Positions 12,865 to 46,502 of a stretch of DNA of 59,986 nt are shown in pieces. The notes under the pieces are model-generated. The model was not told the DNA's origin. It saw only the letters and a program-made list of their open reading frames with translations, and searched no databases. The stretch's first letter is position 1; each line of letters starts with the position of its first letter. Origin of the DNA: a candidate division Kazan bacterium (GTDB lineage Bacteria > Patescibacteriota > Kazan-3B-28); contig QMNG01000003.1 in NCBI GenBank assembly GCA_003647645.1, positions 1-59,986 of the forward strand, in the 5' to 3' direction. The position numbers and the translations under genes were made by a program.

Positions 12865-12992
12865 ACCACTGCTCCGCAGTGGAAGCACTAATATCTAAGC
12901 ACTAAATTCTAAACAAGTATTGAAATAATTTATTCTATAACATGTTTAGAGTTTAGGATTTCGAATCTAGTATTTCCAATGCGAAGCATTGG
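12865..12992. mobile_element. Structural-RNA hairpin insert, copy 1 (RNase P, P12 region)
   Basis: ACCACTGCTCCGCAGTGGAA...heptamer arms...TTCCAATGCGAAGCATTGG; 6 substitutions versus copy 3. Confidence 0.85.
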
Positions 12993-13024
12993 TTTAGTAT
13001 AGTCTCTGTGGCACTTTCCCTATC

Positions 13025-13169
13025 ACCACTGCTGCGCAGTGGAAGCACTAAATCAGAAGCACTAAATCCTAAACATATTTTATTCATCTATCCCAGTTTG
13101 GAATTTAGAATTTGGAATTTGTTTAGAGTTTAGATTTTCGAATTTCGTATTTCCATTGCGGAGCAATGG
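13025..13169. mobile_element. Structural-RNA hairpin insert, copy 2 (RNase P, P9 region)
   Basis: ACCACTGCTGCGCAGTGGAA...TTCCATTGCGGAGCAATGG; colinear with the 23S insert at 45568. Confidence 0.85.
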
Positions 13170-13227
13170 CAACGGTCGCCGTTAGCGACTTTCCGGGTCC
13201 GAAATGGTGTCCGGACTTTCCTCCCCA

Positions 13228-13355
13228 ACCACTGCTCCGCAGTGGAAGCACTAATATCTAAGCACTAAATTCTAAACAAGTATTGAAGTAATTTATTCTA
13301 CAGCATGTTTAGAGTTCAGGATTCCGAATTTAGTATTTCCAATGCGAAGCATTGG
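13228..13355. mobile_element. Structural-RNA hairpin insert, copy 3 (RNase P, P3 region)
   Basis: Near-identical to copy 1; lies just 5' of GGGGAGGAAAGTCC on the minus strand. Confidence 0.85.
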
Positions 13356-13447
13356 CATGGGGCAATCACACATTTGCAAGGAGCAGGATCAGAATACTTT
13401 AATCTATTCAAAGTGTAAAGAGGTGAATCTTATGTATAATTGTATAT

Positions 13448-14089
13448 ATGGACAGCATCAACCAGCCATTTGTCATCGGCATCGGTGGCGGAACTGGCTC
13501 TGGAAAAACATACATCGCCAAACAGCTTCAAAAGATTGATCCTAGCAAGATCATTCTGATTTCCCATGACCATTATTACAAAGACAGGAGTGATATTCCG
13601 CTTGAGGACAGAAAAAAAATAAACTACGACGAGCCAGCCGCAATAGACGGGGATCTGTTTGCCAAACAGATGTTGGCCTTAAAATCCGGCCATTCCATCG
13701 ATATGCCGCTTTATGACTTTTCTACTCACACCCGCCAAAATACTACACAGAAGGTTAAGCCCGCTCCGGTGATCATCATTGAGGGAATCCTCATTCTGAC
13801 CGACAAACGGATCCGAGATCTGCTGGATCTAACCATCTTCGTAGAAGCCGATCCGGACATTCGTCTAGCCAGAAGGCTGGAAAGAGATATTGGTGAACGC
13901 GACAGAAGCTTTGAAGAGTCAATTAACCAGTATCTAATATCCGCCCAGCCGATGCATGATAAATATGTAGAGCCGGGCAAGGATGAAGCTGACATTATTA
14001 TCAACAACAATCGAACAATCGAAGAATTAGAAGATGCTCTGGAAACTATCCGGGCCCGCATTCTTGAAGTTCTTGAAAATTCAAATTAA
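13448..14089 (+). CDS. udk: Uridine kinase
   Basis: IGIGGGTGSGKT, DHYYKD, NYDEPAAID, IIIEGIL, RL.RRL.RD...R.R, MH.KYVEP.K..ADII. Confidence 0.93.
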   Translation: MDSINQPFVIGIGGGTGSGKTYIAKQLQKIDPSKIILISHDHYYKDRSDIPLEDRKKINYDEPAAIDGDLFAKQMLALKSGHSIDMPLYDFSTHTRQNTTQKVKPAPVIIIEGILILTDKRIRDLLDLTIFVEADPDIRLARRLERDIGERDRSFEESINQYLISAQPMHDKYVEPGKDEADIIINNNRTIEELEDALETIRARILEVLENSN

Positions 14090-14104
14090 AATATCTTTCA
14101 AGGG

Positions 14105-14181
14105 GGGCGATTAGCTCAGTTGGTTAGAGCGCATCATTGACGTTGATGAGGTCACTGGTTCGAATCCAGTATCGCCCACCA
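14105..14181 (+). tRNA. tRNA-Val(GAC)
   Basis: GGGCGAT/ATCGCCC acceptor, CATCA-TTGACGT-TGATG, GGTTCGAATCC, CCA. Confidence 0.95.
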
Positions 14182-14292
14182 AACAAAAATTAACCTTCAC
14201 TCACTACATAGGCGGCTGTCAATATAGTTAATGAGTGATTACTATACATATTAGCTTACAGAAAAGTCAGAGAGCAATAACCACAAAAGTAT

Positions 14293-43531: not shown

Positions 43532-43835
43532 TATGTGTGTTATTCGTCAATTGACGAACTTCTGCCGTATGGCAGAACTGCATGTCGCCATGCAGATCGG
43601 ACTATATCTTCCTCACTTAATGTGAGGCTTGGCGTGTAGTCTCTGAGGATTTCCCGCCTTTTCTCTCAGAAAGGGTTTCCATTTTTTTGCTAAATAGCAA
43701 AAAGATGGCGGGATCTTTCCTGCTGATTGTCTGCACCCATTGGATTTTTACTATAAGTGTAATCCTACACTTATAGTACCATGGGATACCCAGGGTTTCC
43801 AGCATATAGCCAAGTTTTACTAAGGCAGCTTTCCT
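43532..43835 (-). mobile_element. ORF-less group I intron at 23S position 1931, apparent terminal A
   Basis: Interrupts CCTAAGGT|AGCGAAATTCC; P ATGCTGGAAA, Q AATCAGCAGG, R TCAGAGACTACA, S AAGATATAGTCC. Confidence 0.88.
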
Positions 43836-43849
43836 ACCTTAGGACCGTT

Positions 43850-44620
43850 CATTTATGTTACTTTGCATAACCACATCCATTACTGATATTGCGCTCTGTG
43901 GCGCCCCGCCGTTTCCGGTTTCCATTTTGCTTATGCAAAATGGCGGGGTCTGCATGTCGCCATGCAGATCGGACTATATCATCTCTGATGTCGAAATCTG
44001 TCGTGTATCAGAGTTCGGCGTATAGTCTCTGAGGATTCTCGCTGTAGAATTCTTTCTCTTACCACCACTATTCATCTGGTGGCGCAACGACAAGGCTAAC
44101 AAATAGTCATTATCGTCGAGTTGTGGTTTAGCCAATAAATTGGCTACCTGTTTAAAACGCTCAAATTCTTGGGCTTTTTGACCCACGAGGGGAAATTTGT
44201 CAAAGAAGGGAATAACACAAGAACATATTTCTGGTAGCGAATTTACTTCGAAATACCATGCATCATTACCTGCTTTGCGCATTGTTCCACATCTAAGAGT
44301 GTTTTTGAATAACTCAAGTGGTTCGCGGTCGCGTTGCGAAACATTAAAGGCGGCGGATATTCTCCAGCCCCTTCTATAATCGCTACGACGACGGCAGATG
44401 ATCATAAAACTACCTTCTCCCAGAGCAAATCCGGAAAGAAAATAACCTATGTCATCAGAAATAGAATTTACATCGAGCCTTTCCTGCTGATTGTCTGCAC
44501 CCGAGACATTGTCAGAAACCATATGTTAAGCATATAAGCTTCTAGTCTGGGATACTACACCTTTTTCAGGACAGAGTTTCCAGCATATAGCCGAATTTTA
44601 CAACTACCTCGGTCAAGTTG
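43850..44620 (-). mobile_element. Group I intron at 23S position 1917
   Basis: Interrupts GTAACTAT|AACGGTCC; U before, G at end; IGS GTAGTTGT; P/Q/R/S elements present. Confidence 0.92.
43974..44522 (-). CDS. LAGLIDADG homing endonuclease overlapping the ribozyme core
   Basis: GYFLSGFALGEGSF...F.VSQRDREPL, IPFFDKFPLVGQKA.EF..F; N-terminus ADNQQERL reads through Q, C-terminus through R and S. Confidence 0.9.
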   Translation of the reverse strand: MVSDNVSGADNQQERLDVNSISDDIGYFLSGFALGEGSFMIICRRRSDYRRGWRISAAFNVSQRDREPLELFKNTLRCGTMRKAGNDAWYFEVNSLPEICSCVIPFFDKFPLVGQKAQEFERFKQVANLLAKPQLDDNDYLLALSLRHQMNSGGKRKNSTARILRDYTPNSDTRQISTSEMI

Positions 44621-44804
44621 ATAGTTACGGCCGCCGTTCACCAGGGCTTAGATCAGAAGCTTTAACCAACGCGAAGCGCTGGTCTGACCTCCTCACGTGA
44701 CCTTCTGGCACTGGGCAAGCGTCAGTCCCTATACTTCCTCTTGCGAGTTAGCAGAGACCTGTGTTTTTGATAAACAGTCGCCTGGAGTCTTTAGCTGCGG
44801 CCAG

Positions 44805-44935
44805 CCACCGCTCCGCAATGGAAATGTCAAATTAAGAATTAGAATGTCAAATGATGGAAGAAGATTCTTTGAATCTTCAATCGTTCATTCTTCATTATTC
44901 ATTCTGCATTGTTCATTCCCAGTGCGAAGCGTTGG
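44805..44935. mobile_element. Structural-RNA hairpin insert, copy 4 (23S, ~helix 63)
   Basis: CCACCGCTCCGCAATGGAA...heptamer arms...TTCCCAGTGCGAAGCGTTGG. Confidence 0.8.
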
Positions 44936-45567
44936 TTGGCAGTCCTTATCCCGAAGTTACGGACGCTGTTTTGCCGAGTTCCTTAAAGAGGGTTCTCTCG
45001 TACGCCTTAGGCTACTCGCCCTACCCACCTGTGTCGGTTTCAGTACGGATATTTTGCATTCTCGCTAGAGGTTTTTCCAGTCAGATTAAATCAGCCAAGT
45101 TATTTCATCCCGAAGGAATCCACTCCCATTCACAGCTCGAAGTTTATCGGCGAACCGAATAATCTCCCGGATTTGCCAAAGAGATCCTCCTCACTGCTTA
45201 GACCCGGAAACCTATCCGGGCTCAGCCTATCATTCTGCGTTACCCCATTGCTAGGCGCGCAAACCCGTGAACTGGCATCCATTCTGCTGTACAGCAGAAC
45301 GATCATCCAATCCGCAGAATTTGTTTGCCTTGGACGAACACAAAATAGTACAGGAATATTAACCTGTTGCCCATCGACTACGCTTTTCAGCCTCGCCTTA
45401 GGACCGACTAACCCTGGGACGAAAACCGTCGCCCAGGAAACCTCAGGTAAATCGGCGTCAAGGTTTTTCACCTTGATCTCGCTACTCGTGCCAACATTCT
45501 CACTTCTGTACGCTCCACCGAACCTTACGGTTCAACTTCACTGCTGTACAGAACGCTCCCCTACCAC

Positions 45568-45712
45568 ACCACTGCTACGCAGTGGAAGCACTAAACCCTA
45601 AGCACTAAATCCTAAACTTATCTTACTCGTTTGTCCCAGTTTGGAATTTGGGATTTGGAATTTGTTTAGAATTTAGGATTTCGAATTTAGAATTTCCATT
45701 GCGGAGCAATGG
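45568..45712. mobile_element. Structural-RNA hairpin insert, copy 5 (23S, ~helix 45)
   Basis: ACCACTGCTACGCAGTGGAA...TTCCATTGCGGAGCAATGG between GAACGCTCCCCTACC and CATCCGCATCTTCGG. Confidence 0.88.
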
Positions 45713-46337
45713 CATCCGCATCTTCGGTACTTAATTTAGCCCCGTTACATTTTCGGCGCAGACACACATCGACCAGTGAGCTATTACGCTTTCTTTGAAG
45801 GATGGCTGCTTCTAAGCCAACCTCCTGGTTGTTTATGTGTCTCTACTTCCTTTCACACTTAATTAAGTTTAGGGACCTTAGATGGCGGTCTGGGCTGTTT
45901 CCCTCTCGACGCATGACGCTTAGCCGCCACGGTCTGACTCTGAGACTTTTGACCAGTCAGTATTCGGAGTTTAATTGGATGTGGTACACATAAGTGCCCA
46001 AATCCATTCAGTAGCTCTACCACTGCTGGGAACGTTCTCAGGCTATACCTAAATATATTTCGGGGAGAACCAGCTATCTCCGAGCTCGATTGGAATTTCT
46101 CCGCTAACCACAGCTCATCCCCTCACTTTTCAACGTAAGTGGGTGCGGCCCTCCACAACTTTTTACGGTTGCTTCAGCCTGGCCATGGTTAGATCGCCCG
46201 GTTTCGGGTCTAATCCCTGCTACTTCAATCGCGCTATTCACACTTGCTTTCGCTTCGGCTACGCCAGTCTAGTGGCTTAACCTTGCAACAAAGATTAACT
46301 CGTTGGCTCATTCTACAAAAGGCACGCAGTCACACCA

Positions 46338-46502
46338 CCAGCACTCTGTGCTGGATGGAAATACTAAGCACGAAGCACTAAATACTAAACAATATCTAAA
46401 TAATAAATTTCCAAACAGGTTTAAAGTGTTTGAAGGTTTAGAATTTGTAATTTGTTTAGAGTTTAGAATTTCGGATTTAGAGTTTCCAGCACACAGTGCT
46501 GG
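46338..46502. mobile_element. Structural-RNA hairpin insert, copy 6 (23S, ~helix 25), variant ends
   Basis: CCAGCACTCTGTGCTGG...AAGCACTAAATACTAAAC...GTTTAGAGTTTAGAATTTCG...TTTCCAGCACACAGTGCTGG. Confidence 0.82.

What the first reader, a model, noticed from the sequence alone, without database searches (positions are those of the whole stretch)
12865..46502. One family of mobile-looking hairpin cassettes colonises both RNase P RNA (3 copies) and 23S rRNA (3 copies)
Seen: six ~130-165 nt inserts (12865-12992, 13025-13169, 13228-13355, 44805-44935, 45568-45712, 46338-46502). Each end is a small palindrome (CCACTGC-TCC-GCAGTGG / CCATTGC-GGA-GCAATGG type), the two ends are inverted copies of each other (~19 nt), and the arms are 7-nt repeats (AAGCACT/AAATCCT versus TTTAGAA/TTTGGAA). 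Copies 1 and 3 differ at only 6 of ~128 nt; RNase P copy 2 and 23S copy 5 are colinear. All six share one orientation relative to the transcript and sit at tips of peripheral helices. No full copy was seen elsewhere in the window. A minimal end-only form (ACCAACGCGAAGCGCTGGT, ~44669-44687) caps another 23S helix. Known: 23S helices 25 and 45 are the classic sites of RNase III-excised intervening sequences, and helices 25/45/63 are eukaryotic expansion-segment sites; REPINs are inverted REP doublets. Inference: a REPIN/MITE-like element that targets, or only survives in, structural-RNA helix tips, either excised after transcription (fragmented rRNA and ribozyme) or kept as expansion segments. 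I do not know of one element family shared between RNase P and rRNA.
Basis: partly seen in the sequence, partly recalled or inferred. Interest (0 to 1): 0.9.

Follow-up and report, generated by a model that had tools for sequence, protein, structure and literature searches.

The report
Mobile hairpin cassettes in stable RNAs
Six copies of one small palindromic hairpin element sit at helix tips of the RNase P ribozyme gene and the 23S rRNA gene of an ultra-small "Kazan" (CPR) bacterium. The same capped element occurs in rRNA and RNase P genes across the whole CPR radiation, is gained, lost and copied between these genes, and is shaped by selection on the RNA fold.

Summary
Six hairpin inserts of 128-165 nt sit in rnpB (P12, P9, P3) and in 23S rRNA (helices 63, 45, 25).

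Each insert has three features:
- a 17-nt GC-rich palindrome (CCAnnGC-NNN-GCnnTGG) at each end;
- arms built from 7-nt repeats;
- a fixed polarity relative to the transcript.

They are the only capped copies in the 1.14-Mb assembly.

Relatives show empty sites at every position, including three different states of helix 25 within a clade of at least 96.6% 16S identity. Copies in different genes of one genome are 85-94% identical, more alike than copies at the same site in different genera.

A context-blind scan of about 185,000 species genomes found 26 loci, all in CPR genomes. Of these, 24-25 lie in 23S/16S rRNA genes or operons or in rnpB, always in the same polarity.

Covariation, including 23 G·U and no A·C departures, supports two mutually exclusive pairings of the ends.

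No HUH transposase and no target duplication goes with the element. GIY-YIG-encoding inserts and their gene-less remnants use the same helix tips.

My reading is an intervening-sequence-like mobile cassette, probably cut out by RNase III.

The parts
12536..13390 (-). RNase P RNA gene (type A), about 855 nt because of three cassettes plus a 67-nt extra hairpin
   Evidence: Infernal RF00010 gives 97.2 bits, E = 4e-30, over 12536-13244. The P1 pairing GCTCCTTGCAAA/TTTGCAAGGAGC extends the gene to about 13390. It is the only rnpB in the assembly.
12865..12992 (-). Cassette e1, replaces the tip of P12
   Evidence: Relatives have 26-38 nt at this position. 122/128 identical to e3.
13025..13169 (-). 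Cassette e2, replaces P9 (relatives have a GNRA-capped AGGGGCAACCCT)
   Evidence: 128/145 identical to e5 in the 23S gene.
13228..13355 (-). Cassette e3, in the P3 loop; a recent copy of e1
   Evidence: P3 carries no heptamer cassette in any of the 14 distinct related rnpB genes examined.
44805..44935 (-). Cassette e4, 23S helix 63; arms use other heptamers (GAATGAA type)
   Evidence: It lies between E. coli positions 1703 and 1770. The empty site in G008, G010 and G012 is 46 nt.
45568..45712 (-). Cassette e5, 23S helix 45
   Evidence: It replaces E. coli 1164-1185. The empty site is 24-28 nt in five relatives. G002 has a copy with identical 17-nt ends.
46338..46502 (-). Cassette e6, 23S helix 25; ends of the CCAGCAC type
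   Evidence: It lies between E. coli 519 and 551. The site is empty (42-47 nt) in G001, G005, G010 and G012. G007 and G008 carry a GIY-YIG ORF insert there instead.
41941..47134 (-). 23S rRNA gene with three group I introns after E. coli positions 1917, 1931 and 2593. The lower coordinate is the last base aligned to E. coli (position 2778), so the true 3' end lies somewhat lower.
12567..12633 (-). 67-nt hairpin between P2' and P4' of rnpB. It is a gene-less remnant of a GIY-YIG-encoding helix-tip insert, a second and unrelated invader family.
   Evidence: It keeps both ends (CCCCCCACTTT...AGAAAGTGGGGGG) and the start-codon region of the ORF-bearing insert in P3 of G002 rnpB. The same 67-nt form sits in 23S H63 of G007.
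44666..44682 (-). Normal-length 23S helix tip (E. coli about 1860-1880) whose sequence resembles a solo cassette end

Best explanation
**What it is.** The six inserts belong to a CPR-wide family of gene-less hairpin cassettes. Each consists of two 17-nt GC-rich palindromic caps (CCAnnGC-NNN-GCnnTGG) enclosing two complementary arms of 7-nt repeats.

**Shown here.**
- The capped form lives almost only at the tips of surface helices of stable-RNA genes (23S, 16S, RNase P RNA).
- It always has the same polarity relative to the transcript.
- It is gained and lost among close relatives.
- It is copied at the DNA level from one helix tip to another, including between rnpB and the 23S gene.
- Its pairing is selected in the RNA strand.

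**Inferred.**
- In the primary transcript the element forms a duplex of about 55-70 bp. Its base is the cap-to-cap clamp.
- Like the classical intervening sequences of helices 25 and 45, it is probably cut by RNase III. The AU-rich arms are removed, and the GC clamp or the two cap hairpins hold and protect the fragment ends.
- This would leave a fragmented 23S rRNA and, unusually, a fragmented RNase P ribozyme. I put this at about 55%, against about 30% for retention as expansion segments.
- Spread most likely uses recombination or repair copying between helix tips. It may be started by one of the small GIY-YIG nucleases that occupy the same tips.
For: **Family and fold**
- In the six copies 89% of cells are paired, 6 pairs show compensatory changes, and slid controls give 28-45%.

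**Sites**
-.

**Gain and loss**
- H25 is empty in G001, G005, G010 and G012. It holds a cassette in G000, G002 and G006. It holds a GIY-YIG insert in G007 and G008.
- H45 is empty in five relatives and H63 in three.
- P3 carries a heptamer cassette only in G000, and P9 only in G000 and G002. P12 carries one in G000 and four relatives (G002, G006, G011, G017). It also carries unrelated extensions in G005 and G007, a GIY-YIG insert in L143, and a small capped variant in L147.
- G006, G008 and G012 share 96.6-98.6% 16S identity.

**Copying between sites (caps removed)**
- G000 P12-P3 0.94.
- G000 P9-H45 0.85, against 0.74 to the H45 copy of G002.
- G002 P9-H63 0.87.
- Two 23S sites of one Minisyncoccia MAG 0.93.
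- A 23S copy and a 16S copy in two Parcubacteria MAGs 0.89.

**Restriction to stable RNA**
- A scan of 185,579 species genomes for capped elements gave 28 loci, 26 of them in CPR MAGs of about ten candidate phyla.
- 18 lie in or directly beside 23S/16S genes, including one copy in an rRNA operon spacer. 6-7 lie in rnpB.
- All have CCACTGC-NNN-GCAGTGG on the RNA 3' side.
- In the complete genome G002, 6 of 6 capped copies are in stable-RNA genes and 0 of 11 cap-less ones are.

**Selection at the RNA level**
- The sense strand folds better than the antisense in 37 of 44 copies, mean -6.7 kcal/mol, Wilcoxon p = 1e-6.
- The centre triplets of the two caps pair in 84 of 84 cells (61 Watson-Crick, 23 G·U, 0 A·C).
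- Local cap hairpins are 98.7% paired, with 10 of 14 pairs showing compensatory changes (0 of 500 shuffles reach this). The cap-to-cap duplex is 89.2% paired, with 13 of 17 such pairs.

**Other support**
- RNase III is encoded at C5:13636-14025.
- Short ORF-less inserts at the H25 and H45 sites of CPR 23S genes were called 'probably IVS' cleaved by RNase III in PMC11270868.
Against: **No RNA evidence.**
Excision, fragmentation and retention are all untested.
- A bacterial RNase P RNA cut at three hairpins has no natural precedent that I know of.

**The folding picture is not simple.**
- Nearest-neighbour energies favour the extended fold by about 8.7 kcal/mol.
- The within-cap covariation therefore needs a second state or a DNA-level reason that I cannot show.

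**No mobiliser is identified.**
- There is no target duplication and no element-encoded protein.
- S23p (PF05635) is absent from G000.
- The link to GIY-YIG genes is only shared sites plus a genome-level correlation (rho 0.69, n = 13, genomes not independent).

**Other limits.**
- Copying between existing cassettes (gene conversion) cannot be told apart from new insertion.
- The CPR-wide sample was selected with a pattern that fixes most cap positions. Only N4, N14 and the centre triplets are free there.
- No genome of G000's own genus was available.
Confidence: 0.62

Rival explanations
1. **Retained expansion segments.** The cassettes stay in the mature RNAs as long surface helices. The organism would then have an RNase P RNA of about 855 nt and an enlarged 23S rRNA, comparable to eukaryotic ES7, ES15 and ES27. 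The segments would be neutral or would act as protein or partner docking sites.
For: - H25, H45 and H63 are the expansion-segment sites of eukaryotes (established knowledge). P3, P9 and P12 are peripheral.
- The RNA fold is under selection.
- Large helix extensions in CPR RNase P RNAs have been described as part of the RNA (PMC8172020).
- A ribozyme in four pieces is unprecedented in bacteria.
Against: - Duplexes of 55-70 bp are standard RNase III substrates, and RNase III is encoded.
- All characterised bacterial inserts of this size at H25 and H45 are excised (PMC11270868; PMC4990558, abstract).
- Rapid turnover and interchange of interiors argue against a site-specific structural role.
- e2 removes the GNRA tetraloop of P9 without replacing it.
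Confidence: 0.3
2. **Non-autonomous partner of a GIY-YIG nuclease.** A small GIY-YIG enzyme encoded elsewhere in the genome, or in sister inserts, cuts DNA at helix-tip sequences. Repair then copies a cassette from another tip (homing in trans). This concerns only how the element moves, so it is compatible with either fate of the RNA.
For: - GIY-YIG ORF inserts occupy the very same tips: 23S H25 in G007 and G008, rnpB P3 in G002 and L144, and rnpB P12 in L143.
- Their gene-less remnants sit in other tips: window 12567-12633, G007 H63, and G007 helix at about 1870.
- G000 has 7 small GIY-YIG genes. One abuts tRNA-Pro, with a 10-nt repeat of the tRNA 5' end.
- One G002 GIY-YIG gene lies inside a heptamer-armed hairpin.
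- GIY-YIG gene number tracks cassette number across 13 genomes (rho 0.69, p = 0.009).
Against: - The GIY-YIG inserts have other ends (CCCCCCACTTTCT or CCGCCAATTTAGAG) and no heptamer arms, so no shared cis sequence is shown.
- The correlation may simply reflect overall load of mobile DNA.
Confidence: 0.25
3. **REPIN or MITE proper.** The element would be a doublet of REP palindromes moved by a RAYT (Y1 HUH) transposase, or a deletion derivative of an insertion sequence moved by its transposase.
For: The architecture is that of a REPIN. Each end is a palindrome, the two ends are inverted copies, and the whole folds into a long hairpin.
Against: - Y1_Tnp is absent from all 12 relatives, including the complete and cassette-rich G002.
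- In G000 it occurs only on two small contigs of deviant GC content, without matching ends.
- There is no target-site duplication.
- Copies number 1-6 per genome, lie inside genes for stable RNA, and have fixed polarity.
Confidence: 0.03
4. **Not mobile.** Each helix tip would have grown in place by replication slippage of heptamers. The copies would look alike only because of shared mutational bias or a shared constraint.
For: The arms are tandem 7-nt repeats. Heptamer units differ between genomes.
Against: - Non-repetitive apical loops are also near-identical between sites: e1/e3 122 of 128, e2/e5 128 of 145 without gaps.
- The same 17-nt caps occur across CPR phyla.
- Three states of one site exist within a clade of at least 96.6% 16S identity.
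Confidence: 0.04

Closest known systems
Intervening sequences (IVS) of bacterial 23S rRNA: helices 25 and 45 of Salmonella, Yersinia and Campylobacter; ORF-bearing IVS of Leptospira and Coxiella burnetii
   Same: - The same two helices.
- An AU-rich extended stem-loop formed by complementary ends.
- Sporadic presence among close relatives.
- Regarded as selfish elements (PMC4990558).
- PMC11270868 already guessed that short CPR inserts at these sites are IVS.
   Different: - This is one sequence family with conserved 17-nt palindromic caps and heptamer arms.
- It also occurs in H63, in 16S helix 6 and in three helices of RNase P RNA.
- Copies are exchanged between genes.
- It is found across CPR phyla.
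- Excision is not shown here.
REPIN / REP sequences with RAYT transposases
   Same: A doublet of inverted palindromes that folds into one long hairpin. The element is non-coding.
   Different: - No RAYT.
- Few copies per genome.
- Copies lie inside stable-RNA genes, not between genes.
- Polarity relative to the transcript is fixed.
Short tandemly repeated repetitive (STRR) heptamers inside the RNase P RNA gene of heterocyst-forming cyanobacteria (Vioque 1997; title seen, paper not held)
   Same: Heptamer repeats that lengthen a peripheral helix of RNase P RNA. From my own knowledge this is P12. Both belong to a genome-wide repeat class.
   Different: Different phylum and different repeat units. 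From my knowledge STRR have no palindromic caps, and they are not reported to be shared with rRNA.
Transcribed hairpin repeats processed by RNase III, such as Neisseria Correia elements, and ERIC/IRU elements
   Same: Imperfect palindromes of 100-170 bp with inverted ends that fold in RNA. Correia elements are cut by RNase III (my own knowledge).
   Different: Those lie in mRNA leaders and intergenic DNA and carry target duplications. None is known in RNase P RNA.
rRNA expansion segments ES7/ES15/ES27 of eukaryotes and the supersized segments of Asgard archaea (PMC7594248, listed)
   Same: The same surface helices are lengthened.
   Different: Expansion segments are inherited at a site and retained. 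Here the copies turn over and move between sites and genes.
Uncharacterised short rRNA inserts and extended RNase P helices of CPR bacteria (PMC11270868; PMC8172020)
   Same: These are very probably the same objects, seen gene by gene.
   Different: Neither paper reports a common architecture, palindromic ends, heptamer arms, or a link between rRNA and RNase P. A text search of PMC11270868 found no mention of palindromes, inverted repeats, hairpins or RNase P.

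Membership tests
23S rRNA intervening sequence (IVS) | Lies at the tip of 23S helix 25 or 45 (less often other surface helices) | tested here: met
   e6 lies between E. coli 519 and 551. e5 replaces 1164-1185.
23S rRNA intervening sequence (IVS) | The ends are complementary and the insert forms an extended stem-loop | tested here: met
   The minimum-energy fold is one long hairpin in all six copies, z = -6.2 to -7.3. 89% of cells are paired.
23S rRNA intervening sequence (IVS) | Sporadic distribution among close relatives or operons | tested here: met
   Filled and empty sites occur within genera.
23S rRNA intervening sequence (IVS) | Removed from the transcript by RNase III without religation, giving a fragmented rRNA | not testable with these tools
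Only the presence of an RNase III gene is shown.
REPIN / REP-RAYT system | Two inverted palindromic REP units around a spacer | tested here: met
REPIN / REP-RAYT system | A cognate RAYT (Y1 HUH) gene in the genome, flanked by the same palindromes | tested here: not met
   PF01797 is absent in 12 of 12 relatives. The two G000 hits lie on contigs of 53% and 35% GC without the caps.
REPIN / REP-RAYT system | Tens to hundreds of extragenic copies | tested here: not met
   There are six capped copies, all inside rnpB or the 23S gene.
MITE | Terminal inverted repeats | tested here: met
MITE | Target-site duplication flanking the element | tested here: not met
   The flanks of 30 CPR copies and of the six copies here are complementary host-stem halves, not direct repeats. 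The original tip is replaced.
MITE | A parent insertion sequence with the same ends and a transposase | tested here: inconclusive
   None was seen in G000 or G002. Heptamer-armed hairpins carrying S23p or GIY-YIG genes exist in relatives, but they lack the caps.
rRNA / RNase P expansion segment | Present in the mature, functional RNA | not testable with these tools
   No RNA data.
Cyanobacterial STRR in rnpB | Tandem heptamer repeats within a peripheral helix of the RNase P RNA gene | tested here: met
   Identity at lag 7 is 0.57 in the G000 copies. e1 is in P12.
Cyanobacterial STRR in rnpB | The repeat units belong to the STRR sequence families of heterocystous cyanobacteria | not tested
   The paper is not held. 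The units here (AAATCCT, AAGCACT and others) vary from genome to genome.

The most novel reading that the evidence does not exclude
The capped cassette is a portable 'cut-and-clamp' RNA-processing module with two functional folds.

- In the extended fold it presents a long duplex to RNase III.
- After the arms are removed, the 17-nt caps either stay paired and hold the pieces together, or snap into two terminal hairpins that shield the new ends.

Because the module carries everything needed for harmless excision, it can be pasted into any surface helix tip of any stable RNA. Ultra-small CPR bacteria would then run on ribosomes made of fragmented rRNA. In this organism the RNase P ribozyme would be assembled from four RNA pieces. 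Small GIY-YIG nucleases that live in the same tips would drive the spread.
Probability: 0.25. Interest if true: 0.9.

Novelty: new variant of a known kind. Interest (0 to 1): 0.76.

Why it matters
- **It links two separate observations.** The many unexplained short inserts of CPR rRNA genes and the oversized RNase P RNAs of CPR bacteria become one element family with a defined architecture.
- **It bears on the origin of intervening sequences.** How they arise and spread is a long-standing question. Here they behave as a recognisable mobile cassette that moves between unrelated RNA genes.
- **It raises a testable possibility.** A naturally fragmented bacterial RNase P ribozyme can be looked for directly.
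- **It offers a natural design rule.** The caps suggest how long helices can be inserted into structured RNAs without breaking them.
- **It has a practical use.** The caps give a simple signature for finding rnpB and rRNA genes that fall below covariance-model cut-offs. G000 rnpB scores 97 bits against a cut-off of 100.

Tried and rejected
- **HUH/RAYT mobiliser.** Rejected.
- **S23p (PF05635) as partner in this genome.** It is absent from G000. It is present in relatives, where it is wrapped in heptamer arms. Its count does not track cassette count (rho 0.34).
- **Target-site duplication.** None.
- **Phage carriage.** No viral contig matches the capped pattern.
- **Kissing-loop reading of the centre-triplet covariation.** I judged it geometrically unlikely in a four-way junction. 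This is reasoning only.
- **'Apex keeps the ancestral tip'.** The P12 cassette of G011 has an apex like the P12 tip of G008. This does not hold for the G000 or G002 copies, so I dropped it.
- **Second 23S gene on C29.** It is only about 72% identical to Kazan 23S genes. I treat it as a foreign contig in the bin, not as an empty paralogue.
- **Wrong reference.** The first 'E. coli' 23S record fetched (NZ_AP027616.1) is not an E. coli rRNA. It was replaced by rrlH of MG1655.
- **Literature.**
  - The Vioque 1997 paper is not held.
  - Searches for an earlier description of a cassette shared by rRNA and RNase P found none.

Full report
**1. What the window is**

The window is contig C3 of a 1.14-Mb, 138-contig bin that is 88% complete.
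- Its rRNA genes are 82-88% identical to those of 'candidate division Kazan' genomes.
- One relative is named in a public record: G002 = METB01000001.1, a complete 699,981-bp genome.
- The 23S gene is on the minus strand.
- It carries three group I introns, after E. coli positions 1917, 1931 and 2593. LAGLIDADG-type ORFs are at 43974-44522 and 42265-42753 (sequence). These are intron sites already known for CPR bacteria (PMC11270868).
- rnpB is found only below the Rfam cut-off, at 97.2 against 100 bits. This matches what PMC8172020 reports for CPR RNase P RNAs.
- A second 23S gene on C29 is only about 72% identical to Kazan 23S genes. I treat it as a foreign contig.

**2. The observation**

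- e1 and e3 are 122/128 identical. e2 (rnpB) and e5 (23S) are 128/145 identical. Neither pair has gaps.
- Each folds into one long imperfect hairpin, z = -6.2 to -7.3.
- In the six-copy alignment 89% of cells are paired, against 28-45% when the partner is slid. Six pairs show changes on both sides.
- The arms are 7-nt periodic: identity at lag 7 is 0.556, against 0.34 when shuffled.
- A profile and a covariance model of the six copies find no further full copy in the whole assembly. They find only two cap-less arm hairpins, one between two tRNA genes and one between ORFs.
- The cap palindrome occurs nowhere else except at 44666.

Helix positions:
- H25, H45 and H63 come from alignment to E. 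coli rrlH.
- P3, P9 and P12 come from the Infernal alignment and from relatives.
- The 'minimal end-only form' is a helix tip of normal length that resembles one cap. It is not an insert.

**3. Relatives: empty sites and turnover**

I compared 23S, 16S and rnpB genes in the 13 genomes of the family, plus some genomes of the order and nine metagenome contigs.

| Site | Empty | Heptamer cassette | Other content |
|---|---|---|---|
| 23S H25 | G001, G005, G010, G012 (42-47 nt) | G000, G002, G006 (about 200 nt) | about 310-nt insert with a small GIY-YIG ORF in G007, G008 |
| 23S H45 | G005, G007, G008, G010, G012 (24-28 nt) | G000, G002, G001 | |
| 23S H63 | G008, G010, G012 (46 nt) | G000, G002 | unrelated 67-nt hairpin in G007 |
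| rnpB P9 | all other relatives | G000, G002 | |
| rnpB P12 | others (26-38 nt) | G000, G002, G006, G011, G017 | unrelated extensions in G005 and G007; a GIY-YIG ORF insert in metagenome contig L143; a small capped variant in L147 |
| rnpB P3 | all but G002 and L144 | G000 only | GIY-YIG insert in G002, L144 |
| 16S helix 6 | G000 | G002 | |

G006, G008 and G012 share 96.6-98.6% 16S identity, yet they show three different states of H25.

The insert replaces the original tip together with a few base pairs. There is no target-site duplication.

**4. Copying between sites and genes**

With the caps removed, the most similar partner of a copy is usually in the same genome at another site:
- G000 P12-P3 0.94.
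- G000 P9-H45 0.85, against 0.74 for the H45 copies of G000 and G002.
- G002 P9-H63 0.87.
- Two 23S sites of one Minisyncoccia MAG 0.93.
- A 23S copy and a 16S copy in two different Parcubacteria MAGs 0.89.

The non-repetitive apical loops are included in these identities. Growth of repeats in place therefore cannot explain them.

**5. Distribution**

I scanned one genome for each of 185,579 species with a pattern that fixes only the caps and their spacing. It returned 28 loci.
- Two are GC-rich look-alikes in Proteobacteria-labelled MAGs.
- The other 26 are in CPR MAGs: Parcu-, Sacchari-, Moran-, Portnoy-, Harrison-, Falkow- and Peribacteria, Paceibacter, Minisyncoccia and Kazan. Five of the 26 loci lie in MAGs labelled 'Bdellovibrionales', but they have CPR-type flanks.
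- 18 lie in or beside 23S/16S genes, including one copy in an rRNA operon spacer.
- 6 lie in rnpB. One more is weakly rnpB, and one context is unknown.
- Recurrent sites include H25, H45, H63, a 5'-domain helix of the 23S gene, 16S helix 6, and P12 of rnpB.
- In every case CCACTGC-NNN-GCAGTGG is on the RNA 3' side.
- No viral contig matched.
- In the complete genome G002, all six capped copies are in stable-RNA genes. None of eleven cap-less hairpins is. Fisher's exact test gives about 8e-5 (my arithmetic).

The capped form is thus specific to stable RNAs. Cap-less hairpins with the same kind of arms are an intergenic repeat.

**6. Anatomy of the caps**

In the CPR-wide sample the positions left free by the pattern behave as follows:
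- Within the 5' cap, N4 and N14 are complementary in 28 of 28 copies (A:T, G:C or T:A).
- Against the 3' cap, the same positions are mismatched in 51 of 56 cells.
- The centre triplets of the two caps are complementary in 84 of 84 cells (61 Watson-Crick, 23 G·U, no A·C).

On 35 distinct end pairs:
- The two local hairpins are 98.7% paired, with 10 of 14 pairs showing compensatory changes.
- The cap-to-cap duplex is 89.2% paired, with 13 of 17 such pairs.
- Both values are beyond all 500 shuffles.

Two mutually exclusive pairings therefore both carry covariation.

The absence of A·C departures shows which strand is under selection. So does the better fold of the sense strand (37 of 44 copies, mean -6.7 kcal/mol, p = 1e-6). 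Both point to pairing in the transcript strand.

Energetically the extended fold wins by about 8.7 kcal/mol. The local hairpins are worth -8.5 and -9.2 kcal/mol.

**7. Other invaders of the same tips**

- G002 rnpB P3 holds a GIY-YIG ORF of about 90-100 aa between the stem halves CCCCCCACTTTCT and AGAAAGTGGGGGG.
- The 67-nt hairpin at 12567-12633 of the window, between P2' and P4' of rnpB, keeps both ends and the start region of that element. So does the H63 insert of G007. Both are gene-less remnants.
- The H25 GIY-YIG insert of G007 and G008 has a gene-less remnant in another 23S helix of G007.
- G000 has seven small GIY-YIG genes. One abuts tRNA-Pro, with a 10-nt repeat of the tRNA 5' end. 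Similar tRNA-associated copies occur in G002.
- GIY-YIG gene number tracks cassette number across the 13 genomes (rho 0.69, p = 0.009). S23p number does not (rho 0.34).
- In relatives, S23p genes and one GIY-YIG gene lie inside heptamer-armed hairpins. Heptamer hairpins can therefore carry genes. G000 has no S23p gene.
- Y1/HUH transposases are absent from all relatives.

**8. How it most likely works**

Shown:
- one family;
- helix-tip location;
- restriction of the capped form to stable RNA;
- fixed polarity;
- gain and loss;
- copying between sites;
- selection on the fold of the transcript strand.

Inferred:
- The extended duplex is an RNase III substrate, as at the classical H25 and H45 IVS sites. 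RNase III is encoded.
- The GC caps serve as a clamp, as end hairpins, or both.
- Spread is by recombination or repair copying between tips, possibly triggered by a nuclease.

I put excision at about 55% and retention at about 30%. The rest is mixed or unknown.

**9. Comparison with what is known, and novelty**

The closest known kind is the 23S intervening sequence. Three of its four defining features are met, and the fourth (excision) could not be tested.

REPIN and MITE membership fail on defining features: there is no RAYT and no target duplication.

Published work has noted short uncharacterised inserts in CPR rRNA (PMC11270868) and extended helices in CPR RNase P RNA (PMC8172020). In the texts I could search, none of the following is reported:
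- a common capped architecture;
- heptamer arms;
- a link between rRNA and RNase P;
- copying between genes.

Earlier AI notes of this scan describe similar heptamer palindromes in other CPR genomes and suggested a 'cut-and-cap' idea. I used them as leads only and tested what I could.

**10. Verdict**

This is a real, non-chance and structurally distinctive element. I class it as a new variant of a known kind, of high interest. The decisive RNA experiment is still outstanding.

Noticed in passing
window 41941-47134 (minus strand): The 23S gene carries three group I introns after E. coli positions 1917, 1931 and 2593. The introns are at about 44620-43850, 43833-43532 and 42869-42125. Two of them encode LAGLIDADG-type ORFs (43974-44522 and 42265-42753). 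The 16-nt exon AACGGTCCTAAGGTAG lies between the first two. The Rfam hit for the 23S ends too early (42816) because of the third intron.
   Followed up: partly
window 31292-31660 (minus strand): A small GIY-YIG gene (31368-31601) ends exactly at the 5' end of tRNA-Pro. The first 10 nt of the tRNA (CGGGGCGTGG) are repeated upstream of the gene, next to a perfect palindrome GTTCTGCTGGCCAGCAGAAC. This looks like a GIY-YIG element inserted into a tRNA gene with restoration of its 5' part. G002 has several such tRNA-associated GIY-YIG genes (L162, L163).
   Followed up: partly
window about 45285-45304 (23S), about 27830-27850 and about 31640-31660; G008 rnpB P12 (L008): A 20-nt hairpin GTTCTGCT-NNNN-AGCAGAA(C/T) recurs in several places. 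It is a 23S domain III helix tip in G000. It is the P12 tip of G008 rnpB (19/20 identical). It also lies just upstream of two GIY-YIG genes of the window. This may be another small shared module or a nuclease site.
   Followed up: no
L058, L059, L060, L063, L064 (G002); C14:10524-10649 (G000): Cap-less heptamer hairpins often end about 8 nt upstream of the ATG of a divergent gene. The repeat unit TTTAGAATTT provides -10-like TAGAAT boxes. They may double as promoters for leaderless or short-leader mRNAs.
   Followed up: no
L078 (G007 23S H25), L080 (G008 23S H25), L143 (rnpB P12): The GIY-YIG ORFs inside rRNA and rnpB helix tips are preceded by TATAAT-like boxes 7-10 nt before the ATG. This suggests an internal promoter and a leaderless mRNA within the stable-RNA gene.
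   Followed up: no
G011 rnpB 3' region (L019), G007 and G005 rnpB P12 (L023, L020): A further module (GAGAGGAAACC-N-GGTTGCCTCTC) appears in P12 of G005 and G007 and at the P2'/P4' site of G011. Several unrelated helix modules seem to be exchanged among peripheral sites of Kazan RNase P RNAs.
   Followed up: no
G000 contigs C29, C81, C88: The bin is mixed.
- C29 carries a second, about 72%-identical 23S gene.
- C88 (53% GC) carries an IS200-type TnpA.
- C81 has 35% GC.
- About 156 kb of the assembly lies on contigs with GC of 0.47 or more, while the main contigs are at 0.44.
   Followed up: partly
L130-L140 (G002, G006, G008, G011, G004): Every S23p (PF05635, '23S rRNA IVS protein') gene examined in Kazan relatives is bracketed by inverted arrays of its own heptamer. 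None of these is in an rRNA gene.
   Followed up: partly
L147 and L148 (metagenome rnpB P12): A different pair of small palindromes (ATTTCGC-GCA-GCGAAAT and CATTCCGC-TGT-GCGGAATG) flanks two extra hairpins in L147. In L148 the two palindromes stand side by side with nothing between them. This is a possible filled/empty pair of another capped cassette type.
   Followed up: no
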